DNA of 64,000 nucleotides from Escherichia coli. Lineage in GTDB: Bacteria; Pseudomonadota; Gammaproteobacteria; Enterobacterales; Enterobacteriaceae. Position numbers: made by a program. Shown here piece by piece: positions 18,001 to 36,000 of the stretch (positions are counted from its first letter, which is position 1; the number at the start of each line of letters is the position of its first letter). The DNA lies in the NCBI RefSeq assembly GCF_030013205.1, contig NZ_CP122649.1, one strand, 5' to 3'.

Positions 18001-21000
18001 GTGAAAATGAAGAGGTCTTGGACCAGACAGCATTGAGCATGAAAGGAAGAAAAGTAACTTTTGGTGAACTGAACATCCCGAATGAAAGTTCCCTGGAAAC
18101 AAGAACGCTTCATTCAAACTTCACCCGGTTTACACAGGAGACTCGGGAAAAGGTTGAAATAGAAAAAAGGTTCGCAAATCTGATTAAGTGGATGGAGTTG
18201 TCGTCGATAAAAATGAGGACGCAGAAAGGATCACCATCACTGAGCAGAATTGCGCTGGATACCTGTAAGCAATGGGCCGAAAAGACAGGCTGGCAAAATA
18301 TGATAAATCGAGCTGCGGCGATGTGTCTGGGGCCAAAGAAGAAGGATGAGGAATATACACCGGATAAAGTAGTTTTATCGACGTTGCACGGTTCGAAGGG
18401 TCTTGAATGGAAAAATGTAATTATTATGAGTTGTAATGCAGATCAGATTCCAAGTAAGCGGTCAGTGGGGCAGGAGGCGATTGAAGAAGAAAGACGACTG
18501 CTTTTTGTTGGGTTTACACGAGCAGAGCAACAGCTGCATGTAATGTGGTACGGTGATCCGTCTTTCTTTTTAAGCGAATGTGCTGAAGATAAATTGAAAG
18601 AGGCTGCGAAAAGTAGAACAGAATCCCCTTTGACAGAATAATTTTGATTTCTTTATTTACAGGAATGAACCCGTGTAGTATAACGTATATGAGCTTGAAT
18701 TTATTGCTCCCACATTTCAAGTAACTTTATAAAAGTTACTTTGCGCGTTAAGCGCATATTCAGCCGTGAAAAGCGGCCAGCTTTCTAAAGCTGCAAGGCA
18801 CCACCGGCAAAATGTCACCTTTGTCGCTGGTGCCTTTCCCATGTCTGAAAAAGGACAATCGAATTTACCAAATCGTAACTAACTTAGCTCTTAATTGAGC
18901 TATTTTCGTTGCGTACTTCTAATGCCAGAAAGTATAAATCAGGCGGTTCATAGCTTACGGGAGATGAATGACAGGCTTTGCCTTTGTGTTGGGATATTTA
19001 ATGATTCCTTCCTTCTTACTATATATAGGTGACCCCAAATGTCTAAAAGTAAAGCACGCAGTAAAGCTCTTCTCATCGCCTTCGCTGATCTGATCCCAGA
19101 TATGGATAAGGTGGTTAACAAGAAGTTATTGGATTCTCTGAATGTTTATTCAGGGCATGATAATGACCTTATTGTTATTATGAATGAAGATGGTCCAACC
19201 ATAATTGAACTGAATTCTTTGAAATCAGTTTCAATGCTGGCTCAAAAGCTTTCTGCTTTTTCTACTTATTATCATGTGGAAATGCAGCAAATTCTTGTCA
19301 ATCCAATTGACTTTGAGAAAGCTTACACACTTCTCAAAGAAGCACCTGCAATTCCAATGTTTAAAACTTTAGCCGATCTGGATAAGTTCTTAAATGAAGA
19401 GTTTGAAAAGTACGGGTTGAACACATTTCTTGATGTGGATAACCTTGATTATTCACTCGCTAAATCCAGAGAGTTAAAAAATGATCAGTTGGTTGCCTGG
19501 GTTTCTGAAATTATTGAGAAGCGCGAGAAATTAGCATTGCGTAATCGATTTAATGAAGTGACCAAAGCACATTATGAAACTGTAGATGCAATGTATGCAG
19601 CCGTTCGCCCATTAATGAAAGAGTTAGGTTTTCCTGATGAACTCATGTTACACACCTTTAGTGAATTGAGCGTTTTCGATTCCAAAGGCTGGGATTATGC
19701 TATCAAGTCGAAAATTGAGTTTCTCACTAAACGCGAGGAGCAATGTTTAGATTATCAAATGAAAGCAGATAAACGGCAAGCGACAGTTGATGAACTCTTG
19801 GCACAAATCAATAACGCTAAAACGGTAAAAGCACCAAGATCTTTTGGTCAGCTGTTTGGCTTTTCTGTTATTGCCATGATGACATTTATGTTCATTGTAA
19901 ACAAATTTATCTAATCCTGTTAAGGGGAAACCCTGACGGGGCTTCTCTTTGCTTAAATTGAGGAGAGAAGTAATGTCATATCTTGAATATGTTAATGAAG
20001 TAAAAGTGTCCGGGATAGTTATCAGTGCAATGGAGAAAGAAATGACTAGCGGAAACGTTGGGTTATTGATAAAGCTCAAAAACAGAATGAAAACTGAAAT
20101 TAATGGTGAAATTACTGAGAGAGAATTTTCGATTCAAATCAAAGTATCACCAGAGATGTATTCAGGCTGTTTCACTGGTATAAATCAAGGTGATGAGTTA
20201 ATGGTCTCCGGTTATCTTGTTGTGGATACCATCACATTGGAAGGGAGAGAGCATCCTCTTGACTACATGAGAGTAGTTGCAACAAGTAAGTTAGCTCACA
20301 TACCTAAACCTCCTAAGGGTTTTGGGCAAAGTAGCTTTAGACAGATCTGACATTTAAACCACCCAAAAGGGGAGAAATCCCTTCATGGGAGTTCTCCCTT
20401 AGGAGATCCCATGAAACAAAAAATAAGGCCGACTGCATTTTGCAGTAAGCAAATGGATTTTTTCTCTATATTCGATTTTGAAGAAGAGGAAAAAGAAATA
20501 ATAACTATAGTTGAGTCTCCACTTGACTATATAAATGATGCAATAGCCGCACAACAAAGTATTCAATCAGAAGATAAACATTCAGGCCCGGAACTGGAGC
20601 CTAGTGTGTCGGAAGATGTTGCTTTGCCTGGTAATTGTCCCAAACTACTCAAAAATCAAATTCTGCATGACATTAGTTTTGCTGCGGAAACTGATTATCT
20701 CTTCACTCTAGAAGAGTACAGTGCGGAGTTAGGTGGTCTGGTTTTTGACTGGGCCCCTGAAGATGTATATCAGTTATACGTCGTCGCAATGGAAGAGTCG
20801 TTGGAAAACGTAAGGCATCTCGTCATTACAAAATCACTCTATTCCACTGATGAATTCGGTAACATAACCGTGAATCCGCTTCTTGAAGCCGAAACACGGT
20901 GGTATATGTCGAAATCATTTGAGCTTACATGTGCCACTCATGGTATTGATGCTATTGAGTTCAGGTCAGAGCTTAAAAAAAGCTTATATGAATATACGCA

Positions 21001-33000: not shown

Positions 33001-36000
33001 TTGAATACGACGATGTCTGTAGTGAGATCCTGAGTAACTCTGCGGACAGCGCCCAGCCAGGTGGCTATGATCGTGAAGAGTACAAAAGACTGATGGAAGT
33101 TGATGGTCAGGTTTTAATCGCCCGATTTGCACTGGAAAAATTCTGGGATACGCATTTTATTGGGCTTATCAACTATGTATCAGATGAAATAACATCCGGG
33201 CTTTATGAGGTTTATCGCACGTTCAGTGATATAAACATGGCCGGTTATACATTTAGTGAGTATTCATATACGCGTCGTATTACCGACGAACTTAGTTTGC
33301 ATATTTCACTTAAAGAGGACGATTTCGAAGAGCAATTAACCGATTGTTATATGGATGAAACAACGCTGCCGTCTGGCAAGGTGGTTTTACGCCGTAATAA
33401 TGAATCAATTATTGGGATTTATGAAGGATATGCTTCAAAATCTTACTTTCCTATGGTTGCTAATGTTAGAGTCCTTGATACAGATGGTGAAGTTGTTACT
33501 GAACTTTACCAAGGGGTGAATGTATCAGAATTAGCTGGTGGTCGGATTAAAATCCATGACCGTCAGGAATTAATTTCTGAGGTGTTCGCTAACTTACGTG
33601 AATTCATCCCAGCATCAGAGGATAAAATCTTTGATGCGGCATGAGTCCTGAAGGTTGAATTATATATTTTCAGGTTTTTATACTTCTAAGAAGGCACGGT
33701 TATCCGTGCCTTTTTTTTTGCTTTCGTCAAAACTTGCATTGATTTTACAATTTTACAACGTTCTTACTGCCCTATATGTTTTACGGTACTGTACTCTTGG
33801 CACCGTTACATGTAAGCCTTCCATTACCTTCTTCAACCAAACCTAGCCTAATTTACATCCTTCCAGCTGTTTCCTTCTCTGCTTCTTTTACTCGAATGTT
33901 TTGCCCCTTGCTGACGTTTCCGGCAGCACACAGTCCGAATGCTGGAGCCTCCAAATTACTTTTTACTTCTTTTGTTTCGGTTTCGCGAAAATAGGTCTCT
34001 TATCTGAAAAATGGATCGTTAGAGATTTGTATACTGTTTAAAACAAAGGAGTCACTATGCCTGCCACTACAATCCTGAGCAATAACCCTGTGAATTCGGT
34101 CTTCTCTAATGACAATAGCCATTTCACATACCGGCATATTGATTTCAGTATTGAGCTACTGCTTTCTTCAGGAACTGACTCACAACTGGAATATCTGTTT
34201 CTCAAACCGGCGGCTGAAGTAAAGATCGATTTACAGCGCCGTTTAGCTAGTGGGGAACGTTACGTTACAACCGAGAGTTGTGACAATTTTAGCGAAGTTG
34301 ATGGCTGCATGGGACACGATTGCTGAGGACTTTATAACGGCAGGCGTCCGATTTAATACAACACGAGACACTATCACCTAATGATGACTGAATCGTTCTT
34401 TGACTGGGTTGTGTATTGCATCACAGGCGTAATACTGGCATCTGCGTTCCTCGAAGGAAAAAGAACCCGTTTTCCGGCTGCATTTTTTTACGGAAGCATT
34501 GTGCTGCTGGTCGTTTTGATAGTGGCCGGTGCCCTCAACTGGTGGTTCTACCGTTCTAAATTCGGCTCAGTTGTCGTTATTTTTGCCGCGACAACGCTGT
34601 TAATGACCCGATTCAGATTGGTTATTTATGCGTTCAGGTTTCGGACGCTGGTGGCAGATCTCCAATCACATGTAGCCAAGGGATTCAGGATAATCCTTGT
34701 CTTACCCGAAAATGAAGACGAGAAGACCGTTTTGCTTAGCAAATTGTCGAAAGTGATACATTCTGGGACGTTGTTTTATACCCGAACAGCTCTGGGTCCA
34801 TATTCTGGGGATCTCCTGCATGCTCTGGGACAAAAGCACCGAAATGGCGAGGGCTATCTGCTTCTTTGTGAGCAACAACTTCCGGCTCGAACCTGGCTAA
34901 GCACTGTAGAAAACGGTCAACCAGAGAAGTCTATTGCAGTTAATTTTCATTCGATCCCTGATATGGAGTGATACCCCTATGAGCAATACAGATTCACAGA
35001 CCGTACCAGCTGATGCCCTGTGTGAAAACAGTTCTCAGGTGAAAATTCAGCTAAGTCGAAGCGCCTCACGAGCATTGACGACGGCGAAAGAAATTCTTGA
35101 AACCCGAGGGCTGGTATCCGTATCCACTGAAGACCTTGTTCAGGCCTGTCTCGAAGAAAATCAGCCACTCGACCTGGCAAGTATCTATCTTGAGCACCGG
35201 CTAAAACAGAAGGGAACCAGTATCTGTGAATTTTAGTGTTTTCCAACCTATTGGGGAAATTCCGGAATGTGTTTATATAGCTGTAAGTAAAGCACTCTAC
35301 AGGTAAATAATGAAAAGCAAAATTCACTCTTCAGGAACGTCCGGCACGAAACGAGTACTTAAAACGGATATTGCGTTGCCTCTGCTTTGTTGGGTGTTCA
35401 CCAGTCCATTCAGTAACTGGACTGATAAGTTTTTTACCGGCACAGAAGTGCCGGAGGGCTCGCTGCCGGGTCTAGAACAGGCGCCTGAGGCTATCTTCCG
35501 ATTTGTGCTCAATGACGAAGGTTTTGATGTTGGTTTTGACGCGGTGGGAATGGATCTCTGTTGTTTCTCTATCCCGCTTTCGACGATGCCCACAAAGAAT
35601 CTGGACGACGAAGAGACGTTGTCGAGGCTTACCGGCGACGTGATACACGGCGTCCTGCTTTCGCTTCCGGAGTACATTGAAATGCCAGACAGGCTGGTCT
35701 ATCAGCTAACTGATGAGGTCATGGCGTTCAATTCACACTGTGGCAACGGAATTCTACATGGATGGACGACGGCTCAAGAGTTGTGGCGAAACGAGATCCT
35801 GCCACGCACCACTATTTTGATGCAGCAGACATCAGTCATTCACTGAGTTCCGGGGGCTCTGGATGAAAAAGCGACTTTACCTTCTTGAATGGAAACTTCG
35901 TGAGACAAGAGCCTGGTTAGGATGGATGGTGTTCTGGATTATCATCAGTTTTATGTTTTTATCAGCGATGTTCATGACAGGTCATTTGTTAAACAAAGTT

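What the first reader, a model, noticed from the sequence alone, without database searches (positions are those of the whole stretch)
19915..33720. Every intergenic region of the 19-33.7 kb gene block carries a GC-rich hairpin whose 3-prime arm is complementary to the downstream Shine-Dalgarno
At least eleven consecutive cistron junctions (about 19921-19972, 20360-20410, 22821-22887, 24016-24092, 26106-26176, 26399-26491, 28544-28620, 29500-29569, 30506-30582, 31504-31575, 32620-32687) share one architecture: an SD-like copy, then a CCC(C)-N2-4-GGG(G) nested hairpin, then a segment complementary to the real SD or start codon. Examples: ggattaca (29518) / tgtaatcc (29537) / SD+ATG ggattacatg (29563); ggaagc (31521) / gcttcc (31545) / SD aggaag (31565); ggaagt (32636) / acttcc (32658) / SD aggaag (32678); ttgctcc (26148) / SD ggagcaa (26167); ggtttt (22856) / aaaacc (22881); catggga (20384) / tcccatg at the start codon (20407). 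The primary sequences differ between junctions while complementarity is kept (compensatory variation), which argues for a functional RNA structure rather than repeat copies. The anti-SD arm can pair either with the upstream SD mimic (SD free) or with the real SD (translation blocked), a switch-like arrangement. Only the 27750 and 33691 elements carry convincing U-tracts, so most are not simple terminators. Possible roles: enforced translational coupling, temperature-responsive RNA thermometers (IncHI transfer is known to be temperature-sensitive), or RNase processing sites. Such elements are absent from the Tra2 block upstream.
Basis: seen in the sequence. Interest (0 to 1): 0.8.

Follow-up and report, generated by a model that had tools for sequence, protein, structure and literature searches.

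The report
Switchable ribosome-site hairpins between plasmid genes
Almost every gene junction in this 14-kb operon of an IncHI1 resistance plasmid carries the same small two-state RNA module, which hides the next gene's ribosome-binding site and also holds a built-in decoy that can release it; the module recurs across IncHI, IncC, SXT-like and marine plasmids, and only single copies have been noted before.

Summary
The window is an R27-type IncHI1 plasmid. Twelve of 14 cistron junctions between 19.9 and 32.7 kb fold into a GC-clamped hairpin H1 (CCC-n3-4-GGG...CCC-n3-4-GGG). It is followed at 0-2 nt by hairpin H2, in which an anti-SD segment (B) pairs with the next gene's SD/start region (C). 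Fold z-scores are -3 to -9; 1 of 25 other genes in the window reaches that. The apical 5' half of H1 (A) copies C and is also complementary to B.

Both pairings are junction-specific, kept by compensatory changes among orthologous plasmids, and stronger on the mRNA strand through G:U pairs. The same module precedes genes of the homologous operon in IncHI2, IncHI3/5-like, Shewanella, Aeromonas, IncC and SXT-like elements. No Rfam family matches.

Best reading: a family of cis-acting, two-state translational attenuators, with B pairing C (off) or A (on). One member is probably the published "strong translational attenuator" upstream of SXT bet.

Not supported: RNA thermometers (no predicted melting at 15-50 C), and obligatory coupling to upstream termination (spacer 0-270 nt, unrelated to A:B strength). 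What flips the switch is unknown. I rate it a new variant of a known kind, moderately to highly interesting.

The parts
19039..33644 (+). Gene block of 15 co-oriented CDSs downstream of trhI. It includes an AAA_5 ATPase, DUF3150, VWA, toprim/primase-like genes and five distant paralogues. It is partly homologous to the IncC 'hde' and SXT bet-exo operons.
   Evidence: Annotation; PHROG hits; synteny; literature.
19916..19975 (+). J1 module. H1 19916-19940; B (anti-SD) 19941-19953; C (SD region) 19959-19972; ATG 19973.
   Evidence: Fold z -3.9; H1 -13.1, A:B -8.1 (weak), B:C -12.6 kcal.
20362..20413 (+). J2 module. H1 20362-20389; A 20367-20377; B 20391-20401; H2 also pairs CATGGGA (20384) with TCCCATG at the start codon (20407-20413).
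   Evidence: z -3.0; A:B -13.8; A/B covariation among orthologues; CM hit E 5e-4.
21402..21459 (+). J3 variant module. H1' 21402-21425 (CCACTGGCAAACATCTGCCAGCGG); A 21407-21420 pairs B 21426-21437; the SD is only weakly paired.
   Evidence: A:B -15.0, B:C -6.3; z -1.5 and P(SD unpaired) 0.74; conserved in orthologues.
22827..22890 (+). J5 module. H1 22827-22854; A 22833-22843; B 22855-22866; C 22875-22888; ATG 22888.
   Evidence: z -3.9; energies; triple covariation across 10 orthologues; CM E 1e-11.
24036..24095 (+). J6 module. H1 24036-24061; A 24042-24051; B 24062-24075; C 24078-24092; ATG 24093.
   Evidence: z -7.1 and P(SD unpaired) 0.04; A:B -12.8, B:C -14.1.
26112..26179 (+). J7 module. 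H1 26112-26142; A 26118-26131; B 26143-26155; C 26166-26174; ATG 26177. A:B (11-12 bp) is longer than B:C (7-9 bp).
   Evidence: z -3.7; A:B -14.8, B:C -11.4; covariation CAAAACG/CGCTTTG to CAAAAAG/CTTTTTG.
26405..26496 (+). J8, a different design. A GC hairpin at about 26405-26427 is followed by a long hairpin at about 26440-26496 that buries the ATG at 26492 and encloses a CCC..GGG mini-hairpin.
   Evidence: -54 kcal; z -9.1; near-invariant sequence in IncHI1/2/3/5-like loci.
27959..28021 (+). J9 module, 213 nt after the upstream stop and downstream of terminator-like hairpins. H1 27959-27984; A 27962-27976; B 27985-27998; C 28004-28016; ATG 28019.
   Evidence: z -5.0; A:B -12.7 with G:U pairs, B:C -12.6.
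28568..28623 (+). J10 module. H1 28568-28591; B 28592-28603; C 28608-28619; ATG 28621. A:B is weak.
   Evidence: z -3.2; A:B -7.6, B:C -11.6.
29509..29572 (+). J11 module. H1 29509-29536; A 29516-29526 (GGGGATTACAT); B 29537-29546 (TGTAATCCCA); C 29556-29571; ATG 29570. The A:B hairpin 29517-29545 is followed by ATTTTTTATT.
   Evidence: z -4.3; A:B -14.0, B:C -13.8; triple change ATTAC/GTAAT/ATTAC to ATCAC/GTGAT/ATCAC in IncHI2; terminator-like call; CM E 5e-14.
30529..30585 (+). J12 module. H1 30529-30553; A 30532-30544; B 30554-30565; C 30570-30576; ATG 30583.
   Evidence: z -3.8; A:B -17.1, B:C -8.9.
31513..31578 (+). J13 module. H1 31513-31540; A 31518-31527; B 31542-31554; C 31562-31574; ATG 31576.
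   Evidence: z -3.0; A:B -12.1, B:C -12.6; CM E 1e-12.
32628..32690 (+). J14 module, about 115 nt after the upstream CDS stop. H1 32628-32655; A 32633-32645; B 32656-32666; C 32675-32685; ATG 32688.
   Evidence: z -3.7; A:B -12.3, B:C -13.6; complete triple turnover in L013 (GGGAGACACC / GGTATCTCCC / GGAAGATACC).
27757..27868 (+). Terminator-like hairpins with T-runs after the toprim gene; they lie inside the block.
33688..33723 (+). Strong intrinsic terminator that ends the block (AAGAAGGCACGGTTATCCGTGCCTTTTTTTTT).

Best explanation
Each junction is a self-contained, cis-acting two-state module in the polycistronic mRNA. It controls translation initiation of the next cistron.

State OFF is the predicted ground state. 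The GC-clamped hairpin H1 (5'-CCC n3-4 GGG ... CCC n3-4 GGG-3') forms. The pyrimidine-rich segment B, which starts 0-2 nt after H1, pairs with segment C (SD, spacer, sometimes the AUG) of the next gene. This gives hairpin H2 with an A/U-rich loop, and the ribosome-binding site is buried.

State ON. Segment A is the inner GGG plus the apical loop of H1 and is a near-copy of C. A pairs with B over 8-13 bp. The 3' arm of H1 folds on itself as a CCC-n4-GGG mini-hairpin at the tip. The 5' CCCnnnn is left single-stranded and C is free.

Shown here: both pairings exist, are junction-specific, are maintained by compensatory evolution, and act on the sense RNA strand. The module is under stronger constraint than the flanking genes and is conserved over a deep range of MOBH conjugative elements.

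Inferred: the modules act as translational attenuators that keep a highly transcribed operon poorly translated, as reported for bet of SXT. A serves as a built-in anti-attenuator. Once the RBS is captured by a 30S subunit (or another factor), the freed B can be taken by A, because H1 with free B and the A:B hairpin are about isoenergetic. That would lower the opening cost and hold the site open, acting as a latch or tuner.

The physiological input that shifts the balance is not identified.
For: - Structure is present and non-random: z -3 to -9 in 12 of 14 block junctions against 1 of 25 other genes; motif and CM hits are confined to the block.
- The SD is paired in the ensemble: P(unpaired) 0.04-0.5.
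- Specificity: cognate A:B averages -12.6 and B:C -12.2 kcal, with median rank 0.02 among non-cognate partners.
- Compensatory evolution: the cognate partner beats the orthologue-swapped partner by 1.9 kcal for A:B (65% better, 24% worse) and by 2.6 kcal for B:C (72% better, 23% worse), n=548. Explicit triple changes occur at J2, J5, J7, J9, J11 and J14.
- H1 pairs: 87.6% paired against 76.5% shuffled, 0/500.
- ON structure on a CM alignment of 98 hits: 84.4% paired against 68.0+-0.9; 257 against 109+-10 double-sided changes; 0/500 shuffles reach it; slid controls 0.04-0.13 against 0.477 (this alignment was fitted to the structure).
- Sense-strand RNA: the + strand is 3.5 kcal more stable than the - strand (p 7e-8). 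A:B is better on + in 92% of elements (p 2e-9), through G:U pairs.
- Two-state energetics: OFF -27.7; with C blocked the MFE is -18.0 against -16.0 for H1 alone, and A:B is the MFE in 41% of 59 elements.
- Constraint: H1 88% identical against 71% for CDSs, IncHI1 versus IncHI2.
- Breadth: the same architecture occurs in IncHI2, IncHI3/5-like, Shewanella, Aeromonas, IncC and SXT-like loci. There are 90 + strand and 8 - strand CM hits, ending at start codons.
[quoted passage not shown] In IncC the 94-nt ssb-bet spacer contains only this module.
Against: - No experiment bears on the IncHI copies.
- The primary SXT paper (Garriss 2013) could not be read, so identifying its attenuator with this module is an inference from position.
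- At equilibrium ON is about 10 kcal less stable than OFF at all temperatures. A:B lowers the RBS-opening cost by only about 2 kcal on average.
- With a 33-nt ribosome footprint, the predicted unfolding cost of block genes (median 11.0 kcal) is not significantly above that of other genes in the window (9.6; p 0.14). Nearest-neighbour thermodynamics alone therefore do not predict unusually strong attenuation.
- A:B is weak at J1 and J10, and B:C is weak at J3 and J12.
- No trigger was found.
Confidence: 0.6

Rival explanations
1. Gated by a common trans-acting factor. A plasmid- or host-encoded protein or RNA recognises the constant parts: the CCCnnnnGGG arms, the freed 5' ACCCnnnn, or the G-free spacer. 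It flips all modules together, switching translation of the whole operon on or off, for example in a new transconjugant.
For: All modules share invariant CCC/GGG clamps and a G-free 5' spacer while the rest is gene-specific. The OFF state needs outside help to open. The modules are restricted to one operon of each element.
Against: No candidate RNA-binding protein was found among block proteins with PHROGs, NCBIfam or one Pfam scan. The constant parts are also fully explained by the needs of the two folds themselves.
Confidence: 0.2
2. Termination-triggered translational coupling. A ribosome stopping at the upstream stop codon covers the 5' CCCnnnn arm of H1. H1 cannot form, A pairs with B, and the downstream SD is released.
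For: The ON fold leaves free exactly the arm nearest the stop codon. The median spacer is 11 nt and about 27% of spacers are <=6 nt. With a 12-18 nt footprint, J5, J11 and J13 switch to the A:B fold.
Against: Spacers range up to 270 nt. Modules at 41-270 nt from any ORF have equally strong A:B (rho 0.13, p 0.41). With a realistic footprint most junctions keep the SD paired.
Confidence: 0.15
3. Mainly mRNA stability or processing elements. H1 acts as a 3'-exonuclease barrier or 5' protective hairpin after RNase cleavage in the A/U-rich spacer or H2 loop, and SD pairing is secondary.
For: Stable GC hairpins sit right after stop codons. A/U-rich, G-free single-stranded stretches flank them.
Against: This does not explain the gene-specific, compensated complementarity of B to both C and A, nor the fixed position relative to the start codon.
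Confidence: 0.12
4. Transcription attenuators. The A:B hairpin followed by a U-run is an intrinsic terminator and H1 is its anti-terminator.
For: At J11, 29517-29545 plus ATTTTTTATT scores as terminator-like. Several IncHI2 and Shewanella copies have T6-T9 after B.
Against: Only 8 of 59 elements have >=6 T in 8, and 21 of 59 have >=5, which is about what A/T-rich loops give by chance. The model does not explain B:C pairing.
Confidence: 0.07
5. RNA thermometers that link expression to the temperature-sensitive transfer of IncHI plasmids.
For: The SD is paired, and IncHI conjugation is thermosensitive (established knowledge).
Against: Predicted SD accessibility is flat from 15 to 50 C. The stems are perfect, at -9 to -14 kcal. 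The same modules occur in IncC, SXT and marine plasmids.
Confidence: 0.05
6. DNA-level elements: ssDNA hairpins for priming or processing of the transferred strand, or REP/MITE-like selfish repeats.
For: They are repeated GC-rich palindromes on a conjugative plasmid. A G:T wobble bias would also appear in ssDNA of the same sense.
Against: The elements are anchored to SDs and start codons and sit in orthologous positions across very divergent plasmids. Their variable parts are gene-specific, and there are no target-site duplications or a shared consensus. No Rfam or REP match was found.
Confidence: 0.04

Closest known systems
Translational attenuator upstream of bet in ICE SXT (Garriss, Poulin-Laprade & Burrus 2013, as summarised in PMC4542580), and the predicted RBS-sequestering structure of vcrx089 in IncC pVCR94 (PMC7498323)
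   Same: Same homologous operon in MOBH/MPF_F elements, the same position directly before the start codon, and the same fold in the IncC and SXT-like loci examined here. Reported to hinder translation strongly despite high transcription.
   Different: The literature I could read describes only single structures at one or two genes. It does not describe a family at nearly every cistron, the A/B/C two-state design, or its presence in IncHI, Shewanella or Aeromonas plasmids.
ermC / cat-type translational attenuation
   Same: The SD of the regulated gene is held in a hairpin. An upstream segment can pair with the anti-SD strand instead and free the SD.
   Different: There is no dedicated leader peptide or stall site. 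The alternative pairing uses the apical half of the first hairpin (1:3, with segment 2 folding on itself) rather than 2:3. Upstream stop distance is irrelevant.
Type I toxin mRNAs (tisB, dinQ, hok/mok) with mutually exclusive structures
   Same: The primary fold is inert for translation because an anti-SD pairs with the SD, and a second fold exposes the site.
   Different: In those mRNAs activation is by 5' or 3' processing of a monocistronic RNA. Here there are 10 or more internal modules in one polycistronic mRNA, and no processing signal has been identified.
RNA thermometers (ROSE, fourU)
   Same: The SD is paired in the last hairpin of a multi-hairpin leader.
   Different: No mismatched, weak helix; no conserved U-rich anti-SD motif; no predicted melting.
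REP/BIME and other intercistronic stabiliser hairpins
   Same: Repeated GC-rich palindromes between genes of an operon.
   Different: REPs share a sequence consensus and are unrelated to the downstream SD. Here only CCC/GGG clamps are constant, and the rest is complementary to each gene's own RBS.
rpsO (S15) operator: pseudoknot versus two hairpins
   Same: Equilibrium between a two-hairpin form and a form in which the loop of hairpin 1 pairs with sequence 3' of it.
   Different: The geometry here (L1 = 0 in 42 of 59 elements, and A overlapping the 5' arm) fits a nested alternative hairpin, not an H-type pseudoknot. No autoregulatory protein is known.

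Membership tests
SXT/IncC bet-type translational attenuator | Structured element directly upstream of a cistron of the traN-distal ssb/bet/exo/AAA-ATPase operon of a MOBH conjugative element | tested here: met
   The window block is syntenic with that operon: traN, a lipoprotein gene, a helicase gene, then AAA_5, DUF3150, VWA and toprim genes. Modules lie 0-14 nt before start codons.
SXT/IncC bet-type translational attenuator | Same secondary-structure architecture as the element upstream of bet | tested here: met
   The IncC ssb-bet spacer (L018, upstream of 12580) and the SXT-like bet (L020, 7939-8003) fold as H1 plus H2 with A/B/C complementarity. The CM built from IncHI and Shewanella copies hits L020 bet at E 4.5e-4 and IncC exo at E 5.5e-5.
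SXT/IncC bet-type translational attenuator | Experimentally lowers translation of the downstream gene | not testable with these tools
   Known only from the review statement; the primary paper is not held.
RNA thermometer | SD-containing helix that melts within the physiological range (about 25-42 C) | tested here: not met
   P(SD unpaired) is constant from 15 to 50 C for all 12 junctions, and the MFE structures are unchanged.
RNA thermometer | SD paired in a hairpin | tested here: met
Intrinsic terminator | GC-rich hairpin followed immediately by a U-tract | tested here: not met
   H1 is followed by B, not by U-runs. Only 27.75 kb and 33.69 kb qualify. The A:B hairpin has >=6/8 T after it in 8 of 59 copies.
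ermC-type leader-peptide attenuation | Short leader ORF whose stalled ribosome masks segment 1 | tested here: not met
   No leader ORF. The nearest upstream ORF stop is 0-270 nt away, and A:B strength is independent of that distance.
H-type pseudoknot operator | Loop-to-3'-flank helix coexisting with stem 1, with loop 1 long enough to cross stem 2 | tested here: not met
   L1 = 0 in 42 of 59 elements, S2 is 8-13 bp, and A overlaps the 5' arm so that a median of only 4 bp of S1 would remain.
Any Rfam 15 family (including REP-like or plasmid RNA motifs) | Match to a curated covariance model | tested here: not met
   No hit on any junction at E<=5 in the window, or at E<=1 in the Shewanella, IncC and Aeromonas loci.

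The most novel reading that the evidence does not exclude
The modules form a previously unrecognised class of intercistronic RNA switch. Ten or more copies per operon occur in thousands of IncHI, IncC and SXT-type resistance elements. They hold a highly transcribed host-defence-evasion/establishment operon in a translationally dormant, RNase-resistant state. All are released together, either by a shared trans-acting factor that recognises the constant CCCnnnnGGG arms or by a ribosome-latched memory of the first initiation. The result would be an operon-wide post-transcriptional gate on what a conjugative element expresses on entering a new host.
Probability: 0.3. Interest if true: 0.8.

Novelty: new variant of a known kind. 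Interest (0 to 1): 0.62.

Why it matters
Homologues of the operon's DUF3150 and AAA-ATPase proteins occur in about 2,000 and about 2,900 plasmid records respectively. These include the major multidrug-resistance vehicles IncHI1, IncHI2, IncHI1B/pNDM-MAR-like and IncC, and the operon also occurs in SXT-like ICEs. In IncC its homologue is the host-defence-evasion locus needed to survive restriction and CRISPR-Cas on entry (PMC7498323).

If these modules set how much of each protein is made, they are a conserved control point for plasmid establishment. They would also explain the long-noted gap between high transcription and poor translation of bet/exo.

For RNA biology they offer dozens of natural, independently evolved copies of one compact (about 60 nt) two-state RBS switch. 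Each copy has its own sequence but one architecture, which makes a ready-made covariation set and a design template.

Tried and rejected
1. H-type pseudoknot (H1 loop pairing with the 3' flank). I rejected this in favour of a nested alternative hairpin, because L1 is 0 in most copies and A overlaps the 5' arm.
2. Terminating-ribosome footprint as a universal trigger. Constrained folds free the SD in few junctions, spacers reach 270 nt, and spacer length does not correlate with A:B strength.
3. Thermometer. Temperature scans are flat.
4. A:B as a general terminator. The U-tract statistics are at chance level.
5. Column-based covariation of A:B and H2 on MAFFT alignments of orthologues (A2, A4, A5). 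Register shifts of +-1 nt make the columns unreliable. I used alignment-free cognate, swap and strand tests and a CM-fitted alignment instead.
6. Energy-only scan of the window. It gives false positives in the GC-rich 54-63 kb segment, so it is informative only for the A/T-rich backbone.
7. RBS-unfolding-cost comparison. It does not separate block genes from the others.
8. The search for related loci on genome contigs returned only 3 loci. Protein search plus contig look-ups worked better.
9. Search for an RNA-binding regulator among block proteins with PHROGs, NCBIfam and Pfam found nothing. g2 shows only an insignificant OB/SSB hint at E about 0.3.
10. Garriss et al. 2013 and the supplement of Roy et al. 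2020 could not be read.

Full report
**What the window is.** The 15-kb query is 100% identical to IncHI1A plasmid pFSIS1609433-1. The DUF3150 and AAA proteins are 100% identical to those of R27. The finding lies in a co-oriented block of 15 CDSs downstream of trhI (19039-33644). The block encodes an AAA_5 (CobS/CbbQ-like) ATPase, DUF3150, a VWA (CobT-like) protein, a toprim/primase-like protein, several small proteins and five distant paralogues.

**Checking the observation.**
- I folded each junction using the deposited CDS coordinates. Eleven junctions give the same picture: a GC-clamped hairpin H1, then at 0-2 nt a second hairpin H2 whose 3' arm is the SD/spacer of the next gene.
- Against 100 dinucleotide shuffles, the -65..+5 region of 12 of the 14 block genes has z between -3.0 and -9.1. 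Among 25 other + strand genes in the window only repE does.
- A simple CCC..GG[GC]..[GC]CC..GGG pattern hits eight times in the block and once elsewhere.
- Three corrections. J4 has no element. J8 is a different, longer structure that buries the ATG at 26492. Two further members were missed: J3, a variant, and the element at 27959-28021 in the long J9 spacer.

**The three-part complementarity is specific.**
- I defined H1 objectively as the best CC...GG hairpin 20-36 nt long. A is its interior, B is the 14 nt after it, and C is the last 20 nt plus the ATG. I then computed RNA duplex energies for 57 elements from six plasmids.
- Cognate A:B averages -12.6 kcal and cognate B:C -12.2 kcal. Each cognate pair ranks at a median of the 2nd percentile among non-cognate partners from other junctions.
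- B is therefore complementary both to its own gene's RBS and to its own H1 apex, beyond the generic GGG/CCC match.

**Comparative evidence.**
- The block is syntenic in an IncHI1B-typed plasmid (88.7% nt), in IncHI2 (about 75% nt), in a graded series of relatives found through the DUF3150 protein (73 to 47% aa), in Klebsiella IncHI1B/IncFIB and IncU-typed plasmids (about 40% aa), and in Shewanella plasmids (about 20% aa).
- The module is present at the orthologous junctions in all of them.
- Changes are compensated in all three segments:

| Junction | Lineage | A | B | C |
|---|---|---|---|---|
| J11 | IncHI1 | GGGGATTACA | TGTAATCCC | GGATTACATG |
| J11 | IncHI2 | GGGGATCACA | GTGATCCC | GGATCACATG |
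| J14 | IncHI1 | GGGGAAGTCGC | GCACTTCC | GGAAGTG |
| J14 | L013 | GGGAGACACC | GGTATCTCCC | GGAAGATACC |
| J7 (partial) | IncHI1 | CAAAACG | CGCTTTG | – |
| J7 (partial) | IncHI2 | CAAAAAG | CTTTTTG | – |

- In L014 at J5, A (GGGGAATTCAT) and C (GGAGATCGC) differ from each other, yet both pair with B (GTGATTTCC) through G:U wobble.
- Swapping partners between orthologues costs 1.9 kcal for A:B and 2.6 kcal for B:C on average. Cognate is better in 65% and 72% of 548 comparisons, and worse in 24% and 23%.
- H1 pairs on a MAFFT alignment of 13 copies are 87.6% paired against 76.5% in shuffles (0/500), with double-sided changes in the four variable pairs.
- H1 is 88% identical between IncHI1 and IncHI2, whereas the flanking genes are 71% identical.

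**Strand and molecule.** The sense strand folds 3.5 kcal better than its reverse complement (p 7e-8). It uses more G:U pairs (94 against 53). The A:B duplex is better in the sense orientation in 92% of elements (p 2e-9). Together with the anchoring to SDs and start codons, this points to the mRNA.

**Geometry of the alternative.**
- I first considered an H-type pseudoknot. The best A:B duplex (8-13 bp) starts at the inner GGG with no spacer (L1 = 0 in 42 of 59) and often extends into the 5' arm, so a pseudoknot is sterically unlikely.
- Constrained folding shows instead a nested alternative hairpin. A pairs with B, and the 3' arm CCC-n4-GGG closes on itself at the tip. This explains why both arms have the form CCCnnnnGGG.
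- A covariance model of this ON structure, built from 13 copies, finds 98 hits (E<=1) in 277 kb from 11 loci. Ninety are on the gene strand and end at start codons. The eight window hits on the gene strand all lie in the block.
- On the model-fitted alignment the ON pairs are 84.4% paired against 68.0+-0.9 in shuffles, with 257 against 109+-10 double-sided changes. The covariation score is 0.477 against 0.04-0.13 when partners are slid. Because the alignment is fitted to the structure, this is supporting rather than independent evidence.

**Energetics.**
- OFF (H1 + H2) averages -27.7 kcal.
- If C is made unavailable, as when a 30S subunit holds it, the best fold of the rest is -18.0. H1 with B free is -16.0. 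The A:B hairpin is the MFE in 41% of 59 elements.
- The two ways of disposing of B are thus near-isoenergetic once the RBS is taken, but ON never beats OFF on its own.

**Tests of the proposed roles.**
- Thermometer: SD accessibility is flat from 15 to 50 C.
- Coupling: the stop-to-H1 spacer has a median of 11 nt but ranges from 0 to 270 nt. Modules far from any ORF have equally strong A:B. A terminating-ribosome footprint frees the SD in only a few junctions.
- Terminator: the A:B hairpin of J11 plus AUUUUUUAUU looks like one, but U-tracts after B are no more frequent than chance across the family.
- A sobering control: with a 33-nt footprint, the predicted RBS-opening cost of block genes (median 11.0 kcal) is not significantly above that of other genes (9.6; p 0.14). 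The case for attenuation therefore rests on the specific, conserved SD pairing and on published experiments in a relative, not on thermodynamics alone.

**Link to what is known.**
- The same architecture precedes the AAA ATPase, ssb, bet, exo and other genes of an IncC plasmid. It also occurs in an Aeromonas plasmid and an SXT-like ICE in a Vibrio contig.
[quoted passage not shown] - In IncC the 94-nt ssb-bet spacer holds nothing but this module. The published attenuator is therefore very probably a member. This is an inference, because the primary paper was not available.
- No Rfam 15 family matches any copy. Full-text searches found no description of a repeated family, of the A/B/C design, or of anything similar in IncHI plasmids.

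**Verdict.**
- The finding is real and statistically strong.
- The favoured physiological roles, thermometer and enforced coupling, are not supported.
- The most likely function is a family of cis-acting, two-state translational attenuators with a built-in anti-attenuator. They keep a strongly transcribed establishment/defence-evasion operon at low, gene-specific translation.
- How the balance is shifted is open. Candidates are a ribosome latch, a shared trans factor, or nothing beyond thermodynamic tuning.
- The kind is known: SD-sequestering attenuators, with one probable member tested in SXT. What appears new is the scale (10 or more per operon), the modular two-state design, and the distribution across IncHI, IncC, SXT-like and marine plasmids.

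Noticed in passing
window 26399-26496: The junction before the toprim/primase-like gene has a different structure. A GC hairpin is followed by a long hairpin (-40 to -54 kcal, z -9) that buries the ATG at 26492 and encloses a CCC..GGG mini-hairpin. Its sequence is almost invariant in IncHI1/2/3/5-like plasmids even where the protein is about 44% identical. Relatives annotate the start 20 nt downstream (window 26512).
   Followed up: partly
window 28621-33644: Five tandem genes of about 290-320 aa are distant paralogues of one another (23-27% identity). They have no PHROG or NCBIfam match, and each is preceded by its own module.
   Followed up: partly
8 nt upstream of each H1 (e.g. window 29501-29508, 31505-31512): The spacer just 5' of H1 is essentially free of G (0-1 G per position in 41 elements), while A, U and C are all common. 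It may keep the region unstructured, or it may be a binding or standby site.
   Followed up: partly
window 29517-29555: The alternative A:B hairpin of J11 is followed by ATTTTTTATT and scores as an intrinsic terminator. At this junction the H1/A:B choice could also act as an anti-terminator/terminator choice.
   Followed up: partly
window 27746-28018 and 33645-33725: Terminator-like hairpins with T-runs at about 27757-27790, 27847-27868 and 33688-33723 split the block into probably two or three transcription units. The module at 27959-28021 then sits in a 5' leader rather than between translated cistrons.
   Followed up: no
L018 (IncC pRM101_1) 9331-9395: One of the strongest covariance-model hits (E 2e-8) lies in an unannotated 300-nt gap and ends where a start codon would be. 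This suggests an unannotated small ORF. A matching hit occurs in the Aeromonas plasmid (L019 9341-9405).
   Followed up: no
L011 9921-10003: In one IncHI2-like relative the B-loop-SD half of the module before the DUF3150 gene is tandemly duplicated (GGGTTTCCTCC-T7-GGAGAAA then TTTCCCC-T7-GGAGAAACCC).
   Followed up: no
window 19973-20350: The 125-aa protein has only insignificant OB-fold/SSB hints (Pfam E about 0.3). It occupies a position near where related Shewanella and IncC operons encode ssb.
   Followed up: partly
window about 54000-63600: A GC-rich segment, unlike the A/T-rich plasmid backbone and presumably acquired DNA, produces many chance hits in energy-only hairpin scans on both strands.
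   Followed up: no
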